In this document: positions 33,299 to 39,180 of the stretch, piece by piece
Numbering within the stretch: the stretch's first letter is position 1
Layout of the letters: the number at the start of each line of letters is the position of its first letter
Origin: an uncultured bacterium
GTDB lineage: Bacteria > Armatimonadota > Hebobacteria > CAIYQO01
DNA: 64,000 nt
NCBI GenBank assembly: GCA_903928345.1
Contig: CAIYQO010000266.1
Location: forward strand, 2,029-66,028
Direction of reading: 5' to 3'
The notes under the pieces: generated by a model
The model's database searches: none
What the model was told of the DNA's origin: nothing
Seen by the model: the letters and a program-made list of their open reading frames with translations, nothing else
Translations under genes and position numbers: made by a program

Positions 33299-34453
33299 AT
33301 GCGCAAGGGCTTTACCCTGATCGAACTCCTTGTCGTGATAGCGATAATTGCTATCCTGGCCGCTATCCTTTTCCCCGTCTTCGCCAAGGCGCGCGAGAAG
33401 GCGCGGCAGACGGCGTGCATCAACAATCAGAAGCAGATCACCACCGCGACGCTGATGTATGCGCAGGACAACAACGAAATGCTCCCCGACGCCGGCAGCT
33501 TCTGGGGCGCGCTGAACATCGACCGCGGCGTGTTGAAGTGCCAGACGAAGAGCCGCCTCGCCAACGGCTACGTCTACTACAGCGCGATCTCCGGGCAGGC
33601 GCTGGGGAAGATCAACGCGCCGGAGAGCACCGCCCTGACGGGTGATGGGTTGCACAACGCCACGACGACCCCGCTCACCTATGACAACGTGGCCTACACC
33701 GACGCCGACTTCGATACCGCGCGCCACGGCGGCAAATATATCGTCTCCTTCGTCGACGGCCACCAGGAGCTGTACAGCACCGGCGTCTTCGGCAACGCGG
33801 CCGTCTTCGCGCTGGACGAAAACACCGGCACGTCGGCCGGCGACTCCAGCGGCAAAGGCGGCACCGGCACGCTCTTCAACACCGCCAGTTGGACCGCCGG
33901 GCATCTGGGCTACGCGGTGAAGTGCGACGGCAACAACAGCTACGTCGAAATCACCAACAACGCCAACCTGGAGAACGTGCAGGAAAGCAACTACACGCTG
34001 GCGGCGTGGTTCAAGCCCAACAGCAACCCCGCCGGCACCGGCTCCGCCAACAACGCCTGCTACGGCATCATCTGCAAGCAGGGGTACCATACCGGGCTCA
34101 CCTACAACAACGGCGGCACCTTTTCGATGTCGCAGTGGTATAACCCGGGGCCGGCGTGCGCGGGCGCCACGACAAGCGGCACCTACGCGCCGGGGAGCTG
34201 GTATCATGTGGCGGCCACCATCGACCGCACCAACGGCATCGTGAAGCTCTATGTCAACGGGACGCAGGACGGCACGAGCAGCTATACCAAGAACGCCGCC
34301 ATTTACGAGTACAACCAGATGCAGTGGCGCATCGGCATCGCGCAGCCCGGCGCCGGCACGTACCGCTGGTGCGCTGACGGCATCATCGACGACGCGCGCA
34401 TCTACAACAAGGCGCTCTCCGACGCGGAAGTCGCCTACCTCGCCGCGCAGTAA
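33299..34453 (+). CDS. prepilin-type N-terminal cleavage/methylation domain protein with LamG-like (concanavalin-type) domain
   Basis: [28 protein letters not shown] (type IV pilin-like N-terminus). C-terminal ...[24 protein letters not shown]...[16 protein letters not shown] (LamG-like). Confidence 0.8.
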
Positions 34454-34473
34454 GGCGCCGCGCTTCCCCCCCG

Positions 34474-34503
34474 CCCCGGCGGCACCGCCGGGGCGGGTTT
34501 TTT
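34474..34503 (+). terminator. intrinsic terminator
   Basis: CCCCGGCGG-CA-CCGCCGGGG stem followed by CGGGTTTTTTGT. Confidence 0.6.
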
Positions 34504-34534: not shown

Positions 34535-34563
34535 TTGACAGCCGCCGTGCGCTCTGGTAGTGT
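34535..34563 (+). promoter_or_regulatory. candidate promoter TTGACA-17-TAGTGT upstream of the NSS transporter
   Basis: -35 at 34535-40 and -10 at 34558-63. Confidence 0.35.
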
Positions 34564-34596
34564 GATGATACTCTAAACGTGACTGAAGGCGTCGGT

Positions 34597-36237
34597 ATGA
34601 CACGTCGCAATGACGAGCACTGGGCGAGTCGGATGGGGGTCATCCTGGCGGTGGCGGGCAGCGCGATCGGGTTGGGGAGTTTTCTACGTTTCCCGACCCA
34701 GGCCGCGCAGTACGGCGGCGCGTTTCTCATCCCCTACCTGGTCGTCCTGCTCTTCATCGGGTTGCCGCTCATGTGGCTGGAGTGGTCCTTCGGCCGCTAC
34801 GGCGGCATTTGGGGCAAACACACCCTGCCCGGCATCTACGAAGCGGCCACCGGTAAAAGCTGGGCGCGCTATCTCGGCGTGCTCGGGCTCTACATCCCCT
34901 TCGTCATCGTCGTCTACTACCTCTACGTCGAGTCGTGGACGCTGGCCTACTCCTTCTTCACCGCCACGAACCAATTCGCCGAGGGGCATGGCGCGGCCGA
35001 CTACCTGCATACCTTCCGCGCCTTCCTGGGCATGAACGATGGCCGGTACGCCTTCTCCTGGCTCGCGGTCGGGGTGCTCGTGCTCACCCTCGTCATCAAC
35101 TTCGTCGTGGCGGCCCAGGACGAGCGCCGCGGCTTGGAGCGCCTCACCTCGGTGGCCATGCCGCTACTATTCCTGCTCTCCGTGGCGTTGGTGGTGCGCG
35201 TGTTCACTCTGCCCGGCGTCGAGGCGGGGCTGGGCCACTTGTGGAAGCCCGACCTGGGCAAGCTGGTGGCGCCCATGACCCTCTTCGGGCACACCTTCCC
35301 CTTCCTGGAACCGAAGGTCTGGCTGGCGGCGCTGGGGCAGGTCTTCTTTACCCTCAACCTGGGCCTCGGCACCGTGCTGGTGGGCGCCAGCTATCTGCGC
35401 AAGGACGACGACACCGCGCTCTCCGGCCTCACCGCGGTCTCGCTGAACGAATTCGGCGAGGTGGTCCTCGGCGCGAGCATCGCGCTACCGGCGGGCATCG
35501 CGCTCCTCGGCGCGTCGACGGTGCTGAAGGTCGCCGCCGACGGCCCGTATACGCTGGGCCTGGTGACCATCCCGCTCATCTTCGAGCGCATGCCCTTCGG
35601 CAGCATATTGGGCGCGGTATGGTTCGTGCTCATCTTCTTCGCCGCCGTGGGCGCCTCCATCGCGCTGCTGCAGCCGATCATCGGCTTTTTCGTGCACGAA
35701 ATCGGCTGGTCGCGGCGCAAGGCGACGATGACGCTGCTCGTCATGACGCTGCTGTATCTCGTCCCCGTGGTGCTCTTCCAACGGCAAGGCTTCATGGCGG
35801 AGATGGACTTCAACGCCGTCAACCTGCTGCTGGCCTTCGGGGCGCTGGTGGAGCTGATCATGTTCCTGGGCGTGTTGGGCATCGAGCGCGGCTGGCAAGG
35901 CATCACCGCCGGCGCCCGCCTGCGCCTGCCGCGCCTGTGGAAAAGCATTCTGTGTTACGTCACCCCCACGCTGCTGATCGTCATCCTGCTAAACTGGTTC
36001 GTGCAGGTCGGCGACGATGCCGCCACGCTGGTGGGGATACCGGACGAGTTCCGTAAGTTCCACATCCTGTCGCGCGTCTGCATGGCGGTGGCGCTGCTGG
36101 GGATGCTGCTGGTCGTGCGCGCGGCCTGGCGCCGCCCGCTGCCCGCGCCCGACGCGGGCCCCGAAGCGGACCTGGGCAGCCTACTCCCGCCGGACGACGC
36201 GCCGCTCATCGCCGAGGAGGTGCCCGGTGTCCACTGA
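34597..36237 (+). CDS. neurotransmitter:sodium symporter (NSS/SNF) family transporter
   Basis: HWASRMGVILAVAGSAIGLGSFLRFP NSS N-terminal signature and about 12 TM helices. ATG 34597 is preferred (RBS GAAGG) over the upstream GTG 34579. Confidence 0.85.
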   Translation: MTRRNDEHWASRMGVILAVAGSAIGLGSFLRFPTQAAQYGGAFLIPYLVVLLFIGLPLMWLEWSFGRYGGIWGKHTLPGIYEAATGKSWARYLGVLGLYIPFVIVVYYLYVESWTLAYSFFTATNQFAEGHGAADYLHTFRAFLGMNDGRYAFSWLAVGVLVLTLVINFVVAAQDERRGLERLTSVAMPLLFLLSVALVVRVFTLPGVEAGLGHLWKPDLGKLVAPMTLFGHTFPFLEPKVWLAALGQVFFTLNLGLGTVLVGASYLRKDDDTALSGLTAVSLNEFGEVVLGASIALPAGIALLGASTVLKVAADGPYTLGLVTIPLIFERMPFGSILGAVWFVLIFFAAVGASIALLQPIIGFFVHEIGWSRRKATMTLLVMTLLYLVPVVLFQRQGFMAEMDFNAVNLLLAFGALVELIMFLGVLGIERGWQGITAGARLRLPRLWKSILCYVTPTLLIVILLNWFVQVGDDAATLVGIPDEFRKFHILSRVCMAVALLGMLLVVRAAWRRPLPAPDAGPEADLGSLLPPDDAPLIAEEVPGVH

Positions 36238-36319
36238 CGCCCTGCTCTTCATGAGTATCACCTGGTGTAGCATTGCCCTGGTCACTTTCTACTGCCTGTG
36301 GCGGCTGGAAAAACGTTAG
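36227..36319 (+). CDS. 30-aa single-TM peptide overlapping the NSS stop (MetS-like small subunit candidate)
   Basis: GTG at 36227, preceded by GAGGAGG (36214-20). Translation VSTDALLFMSITWCSIALVTFYCLWRLEKR. Codon third positions are GC-biased as in genes. Confidence 0.4.
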   Translation: MSTDALLFMSITWCSIALVTFYCLWRLEKR

Positions 36320-36436
36320 CCACGCGCATGAAACTGCCGCGCGCCGGGTACGATACCCCAACGACGCGCCGCCCTGCCGCGTGTTGACCCGCCCTCCCCG
36401 CCGGGTCGCCCATTCCGAGAAGGAGAAGCTCCGCCG

Positions 36437-37291
36437 ATGCCGATATTTGCCGCGTCACCCCTGCCGGATGCCGCGCCGCCCAGCTTCTGGGTGGTCCAGA
36501 CGCTGCCGCACTTCTGGCTCTACGTGCTGGTCAGCACCGTGCTCTTCGTCGGCTTCATGGCCCTGCTGCACCAGTTGCCCGCGCGCGGCAAAAAATGGCT
36601 GATGCTCGGTACCACCTTCCTGGCCGGGTGCTACTTCGTGCTGGAATACTTCCTGCCCGTCCACAAGCTGGATGACGGCACCCTGGGGAACTTCATCACC
36701 CCGACGACGGACCCGGTCAATAACTTCATGATGATCGTGCTGTCGTGGCCGGTGCTGCTGGGCCTCATCAGCCTGGCGACCGTACACGGCACGCGCCTCG
36801 CGAAGGGCAAACCGGGGTGGCACAACAGCCTGGCCTTCTTCCTGGCGCTTATCGGCATGCTCGTGGTCGGCTTCTGGGCGGAGGGGCACGCCAACGCGCC
36901 CGCCGCCGTGCAATTCATTCACGACTCGCTCTATAACGGCCTGCTGGTGAACCTGGACTCCGCCATGTTCGCGCTGCTCGCCTTCTACATTGCCTCCGCC
37001 GCCTACCGCGCCTTCCGCATCCGCACCGCGGAGGCCGCGCTGCTGATGGTTTCCGCGCTGGTGGTGATGCTCGGTGTGGTGGGCGTGGGCGTGGCCATCA
37101 CCAGCCATATCCCCGAGAGTTCGAACTGGGCCTTCTTCCGGCTGGAAAATCTCTCCCTCTGGCTGCTCAAGTGGGTGAATATGCCCGGGCAGCGCGCGGT
37201 GATGATCGGCGTGGCGGTGGGCGCGCTGGCGATGGCGATCCGCCTGTGGCTCAGCCTGGAGCGCGGCGCCTTCTTTTCGGTGGAGGGGTAA
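36437..37291 (+). CDS. polytopic membrane protein (about 6 TM), uncharacterised
   Basis: 284 aa. RBS GAAGGAG. First of three tightly linked membrane-protein genes. Confidence 0.6.
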   Translation: MPIFAASPLPDAAPPSFWVVQTLPHFWLYVLVSTVLFVGFMALLHQLPARGKKWLMLGTTFLAGCYFVLEYFLPVHKLDDGTLGNFITPTTDPVNNFMMIVLSWPVLLGLISLATVHGTRLAKGKPGWHNSLAFFLALIGMLVVGFWAEGHANAPAAVQFIHDSLYNGLLVNLDSAMFALLAFYIASAAYRAFRIRTAEAALLMVSALVVMLGVVGVGVAITSHIPESSNWAFFRLENLSLWLLKWVNMPGQRAVMIGVAVGALAMAIRLWLSLERGAFFSVEG

Positions 37292-37294
37292 ACA

Positions 37295-38245
37295 ATGGGG
37301 CGTTTTCTCGATCTCATGCAGAATCTCGACCGCCGCATCATTTACCTGGTGATCGGCGTGTTGCTGGTAGTGGTGCTGCTCCTCGGCAAGTCGGAAACCG
37401 GCGTGGTGCTGGAGCCGACGCAGAAGTTCTTCGACTCGGTGCAGGCCGCGGATACCTCGCCGCAATCGCACAAGATCATCGTCGTCGGCGTCACCTTCGC
37501 CGCCAACACGCTGGCGGAGAACGGCAACCAGATGCGCGCGCTGGTGCGCCACTTGATGCTCACACACAAACGCTTTGCCGTCGTCGCGGTGGGCGAGCCG
37601 CAGGGCGCCGCCCAAGGCCCACGCATCGTGAAGGATCTGGCCGCGCAGTACGGGTACACCTACGGCACCGACTGGATCGACTTCGGCTACCAGCTCCCGT
37701 CGCTGGGCTTCTACAAGCTCTATACGAAGGACATTCCGAACGCCATCAAGGAAGACGGGCAACTGAAAAAGCCGATCGCCTCCTTCCCGATCATGGACGG
37801 GATCAAGACGGTGAGCGACAATGTCGCGATGCACGTGGAGATCACCGCGTCCTCCAGCGTCTTCGACTGGATTCAATACGTGCAGAACGCGACGCACTTG
37901 AAGATCGGGTATGCCTGTACCGGCGTGATGGCCTCGGAAGCCTACCCGCTGCTCGACTCCGGGCAAATCTCCGGGCTGATGGCCGGGCTGAAGGGCGCGG
38001 CGGACTACGAGCAGTTGACGGACAGCCTGGAGCAGGCACAGGTGCAGGCCGGCACGCGCAAGGCGATGTATGACCCGAAGGCCACCCCCAGCCTGCAGTT
38101 GCCGCAGCCGGCACGCATGTTGATGTTCACGCAAAGCGCCGCTCACCTGGCGATCATCATCTTTATCATCCTGGGCAACGTAGGCCTGTTGTTGTCGACG
38201 CGTCTCGCCCGCAAGAACGGAAAGGAGAGTTCCGCGCATGACTGA
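37295..38245 (+). CDS. bitopic membrane protein with large extracytoplasmic domain, uncharacterised
   Basis: 316 aa with N- and C-terminal TM segments. Starts 4 nt after the previous stop. Confidence 0.6.
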   Translation: MGRFLDLMQNLDRRIIYLVIGVLLVVVLLLGKSETGVVLEPTQKFFDSVQAADTSPQSHKIIVVGVTFAANTLAENGNQMRALVRHLMLTHKRFAVVAVGEPQGAAQGPRIVKDLAAQYGYTYGTDWIDFGYQLPSLGFYKLYTKDIPNAIKEDGQLKKPIASFPIMDGIKTVSDNVAMHVEITASSSVFDWIQYVQNATHLKIGYACTGVMASEAYPLLDSGQISGLMAGLKGAADYEQLTDSLEQAQVQAGTRKAMYDPKATPSLQLPQPARMLMFTQSAAHLAIIIFIILGNVGLLLSTRLARKNGKESSAHD

Positions 38246-39080
38246 CGACACGCAAGCACAACCGGTGCGCCGCCCGGACGGTGAAGAGTCTCCCCTGTGG
38301 ATCGGCGGGCTGCTCGCGCTGATGGTGGTGCTGGTGGTGATCGGCGCGGTCTTCGTCGCGCCCACCCAAGCCTATCACGGGCCGTGGATCACCGTCCTCG
38401 GCGTCATCGCGACGCTGGGCATCTTCTCCATCCTGTACAAGGAGAACCCGCTCTTTCGCTTCTTCGAGCACATCTATATCGGGTTGGCGACGGCTTTCGG
38501 TATCTATTTTCTTTGGAACGACTTCATGATGGCGCACTGGTGGCAGCCGATGTTGCCCAAAATGGCCTCCAATCCGGCTGGCCAGGGGCAGTGGTGGCTG
38601 ATCTTCACCTTGCTCATCGGGGGGCTATTCTTCACCGTCTACTTCGCGAAGATTACCTGGATGAACCGCTTCATCATCGGCGTGCTGATGGGCTGGGGCG
38701 CGGGGTATGCCTTCTCCGCCTTCATGAGCCTCATCGCCCCGCAGCTCACCGCCTCCTTCCGCCCGCCGGTGTCGCACGAGTCGATGGTGGCCGTGGGGAT
38801 GACCAAGGAAAACAACTTCCCGTGGCACGGCCTGTACTGGCACCCGTGGCTGCTCATTTCGCTCATCGTGCTGCTCTGCGTGATGGCGTACTTTTTCTTC
38901 TCCGTGGAGCACCGCTCGGGACTCATCAAGCACCCCGCCATCGCCGGGCGCTACTTCCTGATGATCACCCTGGGCGCCATCTTCGGCACCACGGTAATGA
39001 GCCGCTTCACGCTCCTCATCGGCCGCCTCGACTTCCTCATCCACGCGGTGAAGGACCTGCTGGCGGCGATACACCACTAA
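38238..39080 (+). CDS. polytopic membrane protein (about 7 TM), uncharacterised
   Basis: 280 aa. Overlaps the previous gene by 8 nt. Confidence 0.6.
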   Translation: MTDDTQAQPVRRPDGEESPLWIGGLLALMVVLVVIGAVFVAPTQAYHGPWITVLGVIATLGIFSILYKENPLFRFFEHIYIGLATAFGIYFLWNDFMMAHWWQPMLPKMASNPAGQGQWWLIFTLLIGGLFFTVYFAKITWMNRFIIGVLMGWGAGYAFSAFMSLIAPQLTASFRPPVSHESMVAVGMTKENNFPWHGLYWHPWLLISLIVLLCVMAYFFFSVEHRSGLIKHPAIAGRYFLMITLGAIFGTTVMSRFTLLIGRLDFLIHAVKDLLAAIHH

Positions 39081-39081
39081 G

Positions 39082-39160
39082 CGTTCCACGTTCCACGTTC
39101 CAAGTTCAACGGGATGACCGACTTGCGTATCGCGTTGAACCTTGAACGTGGAACGTGGAA
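39082..39160. repeat. near-perfect 29-bp stem hairpin built from (GTTCCAC)3
   Basis: CGTTCCACGTTCCACGTTCCAAGTTCAACG ... CGTTGAACCTTGAACGTGGAACGTGGAAC. Starts 1 nt after the stop of 38238..39080. Confidence 0.55.
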
Positions 39161-39180
39161 CTCGTCCGAAGGACGCTTGC

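What the first reader, a model, noticed from the sequence alone, without database searches (positions are those of the whole stretch)
36227..36319. 30-aa single-TM peptide gene translationally coupled to the NSS transporter
GTG 36227 is preceded by GAGGAGG and overlaps the last codons of the NSS gene. The product (VSTDALLFMSITWCSIALVTFYCLWRLEKR) is one hydrophobic helix with a basic tail. Small accessory subunits paired with Na+-coupled transporters are known, for example MetS with the NSS-family MetP in Corynebacterium and DUF485 proteins with SSS transporters. This could be an analogous auxiliary subunit.
Basis: partly seen in the sequence, partly recalled or inferred. Interest (0 to 1): 0.55.

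Follow-up and report, generated by a model that had tools for sequence, protein, structure and literature searches.

The report
Small partner protein of LeuT-type transporter
A 30-residue, single-helix membrane protein gene sits on the end of a sodium-symporter (NSS, LeuT-type) gene, and the same arrangement recurs in most relatives across many bacterial phyla, so it is very probably an unnamed small subunit of this transporter, of the kind already known from MetS/MetP.

Summary
GTG 36227 lies 6 nt after GAGGAGG (36214-36220), overlaps the NSS stop (TGA 36235-36237) by 11 nt, and opens a 30-codon ORF ending at TAG 36317-36319.

The ORF alone could be chance in 66% G+C DNA. Comparison settles it. 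Relatives whose NSS is 85% and 60% identical keep the same 30-codon ORF, overlap and Shine-Dalgarno site. They use ATG starts and different stop codons, and CLWRLEKR is invariant despite synonymous changes.

In 159 loci of this NSS clade, 133 have a homologous 28-60 aa single-helix ORF. All but one (an in-frame fusion) lie just after the NSS gene, 84 of them overlapping its end (ATGA in 67). One Aminicenantes locus fuses it in frame to the NSS N-terminus.

The partner NSS belongs to the LeuT clade (41% identity to Aquifex LeuT; other partnered members reach 50-68%). The six closest LeuT relatives lack the ORF.

Curated MetS models do not accept the peptide (NF033493 13.8 bits against a cutoff of 25; PF16951 no hit). 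Profile comparison suggests distant homology. Database members are all "hypothetical protein" or "uncharacterized membrane protein" (about 2,200 cluster representatives).

Verdict: a real gene and a probable 13th-helix subunit of the transporter. It is a new member of a known kind. Its function was not tested.

The parts
34597..36237 (+). NSS (SNF/LeuT-type) transporter gene, 546 aa from ATG 34597 (an in-frame GTG at 34579 is also possible), stop TGA 36235-36237. This is the large subunit.
   Evidence: PF00209 at 140.5 bits. Identical to database protein P0001, 546 aa. Closest solved structure is LeuT of Aquifex aeolicus, E 1.5e-104, residues 6-468, 41% identity.
36214..36220 (+). Shine-Dalgarno sequence GAGGAGG, 6 nt before the GTG start, lying inside the last codons of the NSS gene.
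   Evidence: Read directly. Conserved as GGAGGAGG and TGAGGAGG at the same distance in L090 and L091. An SD-like 4-mer precedes 123 of 133 homologous small ORFs.
36227..36319 (+). Small protein gene: GTG start, 30 codons, TAG stop. Product: MSTDALLFMSITWCSIALVTFYCLWRLEKR.
   Evidence: Gene callers called the equivalent 30-aa gene in L090 (1717-1809) and L091 (6502-6594). Family HMM hit E 0.0031 with an HMM excluding its own phylum, and 1.5e-8 with the whole-family HMM.
36227..36237 (+). 11-nt overlap between the small ORF start and the NSS gene end (start at -8 from the stop codon). This is the geometry of translational coupling.
   Evidence: L090 and L091 have the same -8 offset. Across 133 loci the offset is -1 (ATGA) in 67 and -8 in 16.
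36239..36301 (+). Predicted transmembrane helix (residues about 5-25, ALLFMSITWCSIALVTFYCLW). It includes Trp13, invariant in the seed alignments and nearly so family-wide, and the conserved (F/Y)-C motif near the cytoplasmic end.
   Evidence: Alignments A2 and A5: W13 is invariant in A2 and in at least 90% of A5 sequences. Hydropathy computed.
36302..36316 (+). Basic C-terminal tail RLEKR, predicted to be cytoplasmic. It is part of the motif CL(W/Y)RLE, which is invariant in the Armatimonadota group.
   Evidence: Family members carry on average 3.2 K/R in the 15 residues after the helix and a net charge near 0 before it.
34470..34497 (+). Strong intrinsic-terminator-like hairpin plus T-run ending the upstream gene. 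It marks the 5' boundary of the NSS transcription unit.
   Evidence: 12 G-C pairs, followed by TTTTTTG.
36320..36436 (+). 117-nt spacer to the next gene. It has no terminator-like site and no unusual structure, so transcription probably continues in this lineage.
   Evidence: no terminator here. (fold z-score -0.36).
36437..39080 (+). Three same-strand membrane-protein genes (284, 316 and 280 aa) of unknown function. They are syntenic with the pair only in Armatimonadota and are not part of the conserved two-gene unit.
   Evidence: ORFs. (no Pfam hit). (tblastn hits only in L001, L003, L056, L090, L091). (in other phyla the gene after the small ORF is on the opposite strand).

Best explanation
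36227-36319 is a real gene for a 30-residue single-pass inner-membrane protein. Its N-terminus is predicted to face out, and its basic C-terminal tail to lie in the cytoplasm. Its start lies 6 nt after a strong Shine-Dalgarno site and 8 nt before the NSS stop codon. Ribosomes finishing the NSS gene can therefore re-initiate on it, so both proteins are made from one mRNA in a fixed ratio.

The small protein most likely packs against the 12-helix LeuT-type transporter as a 13th helix. The mid-membrane Trp followed by small residues would make the contact, and the tail would anchor the helix. In that role it would support folding, stability or activity of the carrier, as MetS does for MetP in Corynebacterium.

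Shown here: the ORF, its coupling geometry, its conservation as a coding sequence, its near-exclusive linkage to this NSS clade across phyla, and one natural fusion with compatible topology.

Inferred: translation, physical association, stoichiometry, and any effect on transport.
For: (1) Codon-level conservation. L090 (NSS 85% identical) and L091 (60%) have the same 30-codon ORF with the same -8 offset and the same SD site. Both start with ATG, and the three stops are TAG, TGA and TAA at the same position. CLWRLEKR is invariant despite synonymous changes. The second codon position changes least.

(2) Family-level conservation. An HMM built from 24 non-Armatimonadota small ORFs finds a hit in 64 of 80 genome loci. 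All are on the NSS strand, and 63 lie just after the NSS gene (in L073 the hit is upstream, fused in frame). It finds this ORF as the only hit in the window. It also hits 64 of 80 metagenome loci fetched with LeuT. Overall 133 of 159 loci have the ORF. Offsets are -1 in 67 and -8 in 16. Start codons are ATG in 118, and 123 have an SD-like site.

(3) Independent direction. Small proteins found by profile search (P0155, P0143) lie 4 nt into the end of a PF00209 gene. The next gene there is on the opposite strand.

(4) Rosetta-stone fusion. In L073 the small protein is fused in frame to the NSS N-terminus, behind its own AAGGAGG-ATG. This fits a cytoplasmic C-terminus (positive-inside statistics) joined to the cytoplasmic NSS N-terminus.

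(5) Similarity to real MetS proteins taken from annotated plasmids. hhalign gives probability 91%, E 1.1e-6, score 32.2. None of 200 column-shuffled controls reached this (maximum 29.1). A weak NF033493 hit covers residues 1-13.

(6) MetP/MetS is described as a two-subunit NSS carrier (PMC3219685, citing Trotschel et al. 2008). My recollection of that paper's abstract is that complementation required both subunits.

(7) The family is large. It has 2,191 cluster representatives at E<=0.001, and nearly all of the 150 listed are 30-70 aa and match from residue 1.
Against: There is no expression, proteomic, interaction or transport data for any member. Curated MetS models do not accept it: NF033493 gives 13.8 bits against a cutoff of 25, and PF16951 gives no hit. 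No solved structure contains a relative. Twenty-four of 159 loci lack the ORF, including the six closest relatives of LeuT (76-89% identity). LeuT itself binds and transports substrate alone (general knowledge), so the partner is not universally required by this clade. Single hydrophobic helices give inflated similarity scores, so the homology to MetS remains uncertain. The first, smaller profile comparison gave only 52% probability.
Confidence: 0.75

Rival explanations
1. It is a real small membrane protein, but not a stable subunit of the NSS. It might be an assembly or insertion aid, a regulator that modulates or inhibits the carrier (as AcrZ, MgtS or SgrT do for other transporters), or, in this lineage, a component acting with the three downstream membrane proteins.
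For: In the window there is no terminator between the small ORF and the 284/316/280-aa membrane genes, and that five-gene order is kept in all Armatimonadota relatives. The partner has been lost from several lineages, including the closest LeuT relatives. That fits a modulator better than an obligatory core subunit.
Against: Outside Armatimonadota the three downstream genes are absent, and the gene after the small ORF is often on the other strand. The only constant neighbour is therefore the NSS. The start/stop overlap implies a fixed production ratio, and the in-frame fusion implies permanent proximity.
Confidence: 0.15
2. It is a translational-coupling or leader ORF. The act of translating it matters, for example to set expression of downstream genes or to keep the mRNA open, and the peptide itself has no function.
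For: It is short, overlaps the upstream stop, and has a strong SD site. In this window more genes follow on the same strand.
Against: The peptide sequence is conserved across phyla: Trp13, the (F/Y)-C motif, the basic tail, and a hydrophobic helix of constant length. The invariant CLWRLEKR carries synonymous changes. In many loci nothing follows on the same strand.
Confidence: 0.04
3. It is a chance ORF in G+C-rich DNA, or a frameshifted C-terminal piece of the NSS gene (a sequencing or assembly error), and not a separate gene.
For: ORFs of 30 codons are common here: 3,971 start codons open at least 25 codons. The longest version of this frame (36017-36319) is an ordinary overlapping frame.
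Against: Three independent assemblies show the same 11-nt overlap and frame. In total 133 loci have a separate ORF with its own start and SD site. None of the 120 closest NSS proteins carries the domain at its C-terminus. The HMM hit is the only one in the window.
Confidence: 0.03

Closest known systems
MetS, the small subunit of the MetP/MetS methionine-alanine NSS importer of Corynebacterium glutamicum. Families: NCBIfam NF033493 'MetS family NSS transporter small subunit' and Pfam PF16951 MaAIMP_sms 'methionine/alanine import family NSS transporter small subunit'.
   Same: Both are single-helix proteins of 30-50 aa with a short polar N-terminus, Trp plus small residues in mid-helix, and a basic tail. 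Both are encoded immediately after an NSS gene on the same strand, overlapping or abutting its stop: L082 3021 against an NSS end of 3021, L084 3045 against 3042, L081 2977 against 2964. The N-terminal pattern M-x-x-x-A-(I/L/V)-(I/L/V)-x-M is shared with the Armatimonadota versions. Profile-profile similarity exceeds the shuffled controls.
   Different: The peptide fails both curated models. Its conserved Trp is at position 13 followed by one small residue, whereas MetS has W17-G18-G19. It has a conserved (F/Y)-C-(F/L) motif that MetS lacks. Its partner is a LeuT-clade NSS, only 26-31% identical to the NSS genes paired with MetS proteins. Functional dependence has been shown only for MetPS.
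LeuT of Aquifex aeolicus (PDB 2A65 and many others), the structural model of the NSS/SLC6 family.
   Same: The large subunit here is a LeuT orthologue: E 1.5e-104 over residues 6-468 and 41% identity. Other partnered NSS genes are 50-68% identical to LeuT.
   Different: LeuT is studied as a single polypeptide. Its closest relatives in metagenomes (76-89% identity) have no small ORF. An SppA-like gene or a 138-aa membrane-protein gene follows instead. The window NSS also lacks the two hydroxyl side chains of LeuT's Na2 site.
Small subunits of other Na+-coupled carriers, such as DUF485/YjcH with the SSS transporter ActP, and single-helix partners of eukaryotic SLC6 carriers (collectrin or ACE2 with B0AT1). 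Recalled from general knowledge and not tested here.
   Same: The concept is the same: a small one- or two-helix membrane protein paired with a LeuT-fold carrier. In bacteria it is encoded next to the carrier gene.
   Different: No sequence relationship was found. Pfam gave no such hit. The gene order and the transporter family differ.

Membership tests
NCBIfam NF033493, MetS family NSS transporter small subunit | Score at or above the curated cutoff (25 bits) against the family model | tested here: not met
   13.8 bits, E 0.035, covering only residues 1-13. Of 28 family peptides only 3 match at E<=1, with a best E of 0.0035.
NCBIfam NF033493, MetS family NSS transporter small subunit | Small single-helix protein encoded directly after an NSS gene on the same strand | tested here: met
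   30 aa, one hydrophobic helix, start 8 nt before the NSS stop. The geometry matches that of the annotated MetS genes in L081, L082 and L084.
NCBIfam NF033493, MetS family NSS transporter small subunit | Detectable homology to bona fide members | tested here: inconclusive
   hhalign gave 52% probability with 3 MetS sequences. With 9 MetS and about 80 family sequences it gave 91%, E 1.1e-6, and 0 of 200 shuffles reached the score. The MetS set has low diversity, and both sets are hydrophobic helices.
NCBIfam NF033493, MetS family NSS transporter small subunit | The transporter depends functionally on the small subunit | not testable with these tools
   This needs complementation or transport assays. 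It is reported for MetPS only (Trotschel et al. 2008, cited in PMC3219685).
Pfam PF16951, MaAIMP_sms (methionine/alanine importer small subunit) | Match to the Pfam model | tested here: not met
   No hit for the window peptide at E<=1. One of 28 family peptides matches at E 0.84. True members (P0175 and others) carry PF16951.
Unnamed family of small proteins linked to LeuT-clade NSS genes (defined here) | Match to a profile built without the query's own lineage | tested here: met
   E 0.0031, 17.5 bits, the only hit in the window among 17,623 ORFs searched, with noise starting at E 0.19. E 1.5e-8 with the whole-family profile.
Unnamed family of small proteins linked to LeuT-clade NSS genes (defined here) | Position immediately 3' of, and usually overlapping, a LeuT-clade NSS gene | tested here: met
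   The offset is -8 here. Of 133 loci, 84 overlap the NSS end and 39 start within 25 nt after it.
Unnamed family of small proteins linked to LeuT-clade NSS genes (defined here) | Conserved Trp at about position 13, an (F/Y)-C motif near the cytoplasmic end, and a basic tail | tested here: met
   The window peptide has W13, Y22-C23 and R26/K29/R30.
NSS / SNF transporters (Pfam PF00209), for the partner gene | Score above the Pfam gathering threshold, with the LeuT fold core present | tested here: met
   140.5 bits against a cutoff of 27. Aligns to LeuT residues 5-468.

The most novel reading that the evidence does not exclude
Most LeuT-type NSS transporters in bacteria may be two-subunit carriers. 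Their single-helix partner would be a large, unnamed family (about 2,200 sequence clusters in more than 15 phyla) that curated MetS models miss. Aquifex LeuT, the structural reference for the whole SLC6 field, would then be an atypical member that lost this partner. If so, the small subunit would be a general, ancient feature of prokaryotic NSS carriers, with MetS as one branch. It would also be a bacterial counterpart of the single-helix partners of eukaryotic SLC6 transporters.
Probability: 0.4. Interest if true: 0.7.

Novelty: new member of a known kind. Interest (0 to 1): 0.55.

Why it matters
Small subunits of NSS carriers are known from one characterised case (MetPS) and two curated sequence families. 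This work shows that a different, unannotated family of single-helix proteins accompanies the LeuT clade itself in most lineages sampled. Three consequences follow.

(1) Genome annotation. Thousands of "hypothetical" 30-60 aa genes could be given a name and a context.

(2) Transport biochemistry. LeuT orthologues used as models may behave differently with their natural partner. LeuT from Aquifex appears to be a partner-less exception.

(3) Experiments. The pair offers a simple bacterial system for asking what a single accessory helix does to a LeuT-fold carrier. The natural fusion in L073 suggests a ready-made construct.

For this window specifically, the finding is a correct gene call with a plausible role.

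Tried and rejected
I re-ran it with a 50-aa member first.
- The window's own contig could not be found by exact look-up of P0001, so the source annotation of the small ORF is unknown.
- The Aquifex aeolicus genome could not be reached. I used metagenome relatives at 76-89% identity as a proxy.
- The original MetPS paper is not held. One literature query was malformed. The other searches found no description of a small partner for LeuT-type NSS transporters.
- No chain in the PDB resembles the peptide family.
- No Rfam family and no riboswitch lies near the operon. The sigma-70 consensus scan called no promoter. By eye there is a TTGACA at 34535-34540, a 17-nt spacer and then TAGTGT, which is only a weak lead.
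- Rejected: a frameshifted NSS C-terminus. None of the 120 NSS homologues carries the domain.
- Rejected: a link to the three downstream genes. They are absent outside Armatimonadota.
- I considered looking for NSS residues that distinguish partnered from partner-less transporters to locate the docking site. I did not run this, because the partner-less set represents only a few independent losses.
- Structure prediction of the complex was not possible.
Full report
**1. The observation**

- GAGGAGG lies at 36214-36220.
- GTG lies at 36227-36229, six bases later.
- The stop codon of the upstream gene, TGA, lies at 36235-36237.
- The small frame runs to TAG at 36317-36319.

It encodes (M)STDALLFMSITWCSIALVTFYCLWRLEKR. 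This is four polar residues, a hydrophobic stretch of about 21 residues, and a basic tail. The upstream gene (34597-36237, 546 aa) is a sodium:neurotransmitter symporter family (NSS) protein, scoring 140.5 bits on PF00209.

On its own the ORF proves little. The window is 66% G+C, and 3,971 start codons open frames of at least 25 codons. The combination is rare, however. Only 41 of those starts have GGAGG at -15..-4, and only two of these encode a 25-60 aa product with a membrane-helix-like stretch. This ORF is one of the two.

**2. Conservation in the closest relatives**

The protein search with the NSS found relatives mostly from Armatimonadota metagenome bins. Two contigs carry NSS genes 85% (L090) and 60% (L091) identical to the window's. 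On both, gene callers had already called a 30-residue gene that overlaps the NSS end by 11 nt.

Aligned with the window, the two contigs show the following:
- the same start position, as ATG in both, against GTG in the window;
- the same Shine-Dalgarno site (GGAGGAGG and TGAGGAGG);
- the same length.

The three sequences use three different stop codons (TAG, TGA, TAA) at the same position. They share an invariant C-terminal CLWRLEKR that carries synonymous differences (CGG/CGA, CTG/TTG, AAA/AAG, CGT/CGC/CGA). Differences are fewest at the second codon position. This is the pattern of a translated gene under purifying selection, not of a chance frame.

**3. Conservation across phyla**

A scan of one genome per species with an alignment of the NSS returned 80 loci. 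They come from Armatimonadota, Ignavibacteriota, Bacteroidota, Omnitrophota, Planctomycetota, Nitrospinota, Zixibacteria, Acidobacteriota, Verrucomicrobiota, Gemmatimonadota, Margulisiibacteriota, Aquificota (Persephonella) and others.

A simple script found a 28-57 aa hydrophobic ORF starting within a few bases of the NSS stop in most of them. The recurring pattern is M-x-x-x-G-W-I-F-x-x-x-S-W-G-x-I-x-x-L-x-x-F-C-F-x-K.

I then built an HMM from 24 of these ORFs, excluding all Armatimonadota, and searched every stop-to-stop ORF of at least 18 codons in all six frames of the 80 loci and the window (17,623 ORFs).
- The top 65 hits were 64 loci plus the window. All were on the NSS strand, and all but one (the L073 fusion, section 4) lay just after the NSS gene.
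- The window ORF scored E 0.0031.
- Noise began at E 0.19.

**4. Geometry, independent confirmation and a fusion**

Pooling these loci with 80 metagenome loci fetched with LeuT (section 5) and with L090 and L091 gives 159 loci with a complete NSS 3' end. Of these, 133 have the small ORF.

| Feature (133 loci) | Count |
|---|---|
| Start 1 nt before the stop codon (ATGA) | 67 |
| Start 8 nt before the stop, as in the window | 16 |
| Start overlapping the NSS end, in total | 84 |
| Start within 25 nt after the stop | 39 |
| ATG start | 118 |
| SD-like 4-mer upstream | 123 |
| Median length | 38 aa |

The reverse direction gives the same answer. Two small proteins recovered by profile search (P0155 on 24 contigs read, P0143 on 17) each lie 4 nt into the end of a PF00209 gene. 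The next gene there is on the opposite strand. The conserved unit is therefore the pair and nothing else.

In one Aminicenantes locus (L073) the small protein lies upstream, behind its own AAGGAGG-ATG. It is fused in frame to the NSS: MTYWGWIFFVVGWTTIIGLSVYCFSRVLLAKKQKEVLE-MPGTGRAQW.... The family has about 3.2 Lys/Arg in the 15 residues after the helix and no net charge before it. This predicts an N-out, C-in orientation. That orientation is what a fusion to the cytoplasmic N-terminus of an NSS protein requires.

**5. The partner is a LeuT orthologue**

The closest solved structure to the window NSS is LeuT of Aquifex aeolicus (E 1.5e-104, residues 6-468). It is far closer than MhsT or any eukaryotic SLC6 protein. 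Identity to LeuT is 41% for the window NSS and 50-59% for many partnered NSS genes among the genome loci. Persephonella (L060) reaches 58.8%.

I rebuilt LeuT residues 1-468. Residues 5-468 were checked against the alignment printed; the first four come from memory. I used this sequence for the one metagenome scan.
- 64 of the 80 loci have the small ORF.
- Of the 16 without a clear hit, three NSS genes run off the contig and four score only marginally (E 0.001-0.011).
- The six closest LeuT relatives have no hit anywhere in the 2.5 kb on either side.
- In L092 (89%) and L093 (86%) an SppA-like peptidase gene overlaps the NSS stop.
- In L094-L096 and L111 (76-77%) a 138-aa multi-helix gene follows.

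By this proxy, LeuT itself probably has no adjacent partner. I could not fetch the A. aeolicus genome to check directly.

**6. Relation to MetS**

NCBIfam NF033493 (MetS family NSS transporter small subunit) touches the window peptide only weakly: 13.8 bits against a cutoff of 25, E 0.035, residues 1-13. It matches just 3 of 28 family peptides at E<=1. Pfam PF16951 matches essentially none.

All database members of the family are labelled "hypothetical protein" or "uncharacterized membrane protein" and have no Pfam domain. A full scan of 1.84 billion representative proteins gave 2,191 clusters at E<=0.001. Nearly all of the 150 listed are 30-70 aa and match from residue 1.

To compare with real MetS proteins, I found NSS genes on annotated plasmids. 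I then read their neighbours: Acinetobacter baumannii, Priestia megaterium and Peptoclostridium acidaminophilum.
- These MetS genes have the same downstream, abutting or overlapping position.
- Their NSS genes are only 26-31% identical to the window's.
- MetS has W17-G18-G19, whereas this family has W13 plus one small residue and an (F/Y)-C motif.

The profile-profile comparison gave 52% probability with three MetS sequences. With about 80 family sequences and nine MetS sequences it gave 91%, E 1.1e-6, score 32.2. Two hundred shuffles of the helix columns gave a mean of 13.7 and a maximum of 29.1.

I read this as probable distant homology, carried mainly by the N-terminal M-x-x-x-A-(I/L)-(I/L)-x-M segment. 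It is not membership by any curated criterion.

**7. Mechanism**

What is established:
- the ORF is a conserved coding sequence;
- it is coupled at the level of gene structure to a LeuT-type NSS gene;
- this linkage is the only constant feature of its context;
- a natural fusion exists with compatible topology.

From this, and from the MetPS precedent, I infer a single-pass protein made in fixed ratio with the carrier that packs against it as a 13th helix and supports stability or activity. MetPS is described as a two-subunit NSS carrier in PMC3219685. My recollection of the 2008 paper's abstract is that complementation needed both parts.

The partner has been lost in several lineages, including the LeuT lineage. 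This shows it is not indispensable for the fold, and it leaves room for a modulatory role rather than an obligatory one.

**8. Local context in the window**

A strong terminator (34470-34497) ends the upstream gene. No terminator or unusual structure lies between the small ORF and the next gene.

Three membrane-protein genes of unknown function follow (36437-39080). They are syntenic only in Armatimonadota. A long hairpin at 39083-39161 comes after them. In this lineage the pair is probably the front of a five-gene transcript, but the last three genes are not part of the widely conserved unit.

**9. Verdict**

The kind of thing, a small subunit of an NSS carrier, is known. This particular family, its size and its link to the LeuT clade are not covered by the curated models. 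I found no description of it in the papers I could search. Function remains untested.

Noticed in passing
window 35650-35655 and 34678-34680: The window NSS lacks both hydroxyl side chains of LeuT's Na2 site: LeuT T354/S355 correspond to G352/A353 here. It also has Ser in place of the Na1 ligand N27 (S28 here). The 85% relative shares all three changes, and the 60% relative has C/A at the Na2 positions. This may mean altered ion coupling in this sub-lineage.
   Followed up: partly
window 36437-39080: Three consecutive membrane-protein genes (284, 316 and 280 aa) have no Pfam or NCBIfam match. They are kept in the same order after the NSS/small-ORF pair in every Armatimonadota relative (L001, L003, L056, L090, L091) and are absent from the other phyla.
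   Followed up: partly
window 39083-39161: A near-perfect long hairpin built from repeated GTTCCAC-like heptamers lies directly after the 280-aa gene. Its free energy is -55 kcal/mol, z-score -8.3. It matched a microRNA model on both strands below threshold, which only reflects the hairpin shape. It may be a terminator or a repeat element.
   Followed up: partly
L073 2866-4566 (Aminicenantes, JAPKZK010000093.1): The small protein is fused in frame to the N-terminus of the NSS, with the gene order reversed relative to all other loci.
   Followed up: partly
P0144, P0146, P0149, P0151, P0155, P0156, P0160 and others; L045 and L172-L175: A subfamily of the small protein (one named member and locus L045 are Verrucomicrobiota) has a conserved 25-residue cytoplasmic tail, RVLTSRKHWTHPDEDIxELHHGEFGE. 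This suggests an added function for the tail.
   Followed up: no
L092 and L093 (LeuT 86-89% identity), just after the NSS stop: In the closest LeuT relatives an SppA-like signal-peptide-peptidase gene overlaps the NSS stop by 11-14 nt, in the place where other lineages have the small ORF.
   Followed up: no
L066 4437-5006: Here the small-protein domain is the C-terminal part of a longer ORF of about 154 aa that starts at the NSS stop. This may be a fusion with another membrane segment.
   Followed up: no
window 33299-34453: The upstream gene encodes a prepilin-type N-terminal methylation motif, a DUF1559 segment and a LamG/concanavalin-like domain. This is a pseudopilin-like secreted protein typical of Planctomycetota/Verrucomicrobiota-like and Armatimonadota genomes.
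   Followed up: no
P0295 (5,597 aa): The top-scoring protein in the representative-library search is a 5,597-residue protein that matches the helix part of the profile in 10 stretches. It is probably a repetitive hydrophobic protein or an artefact.
   Followed up: no
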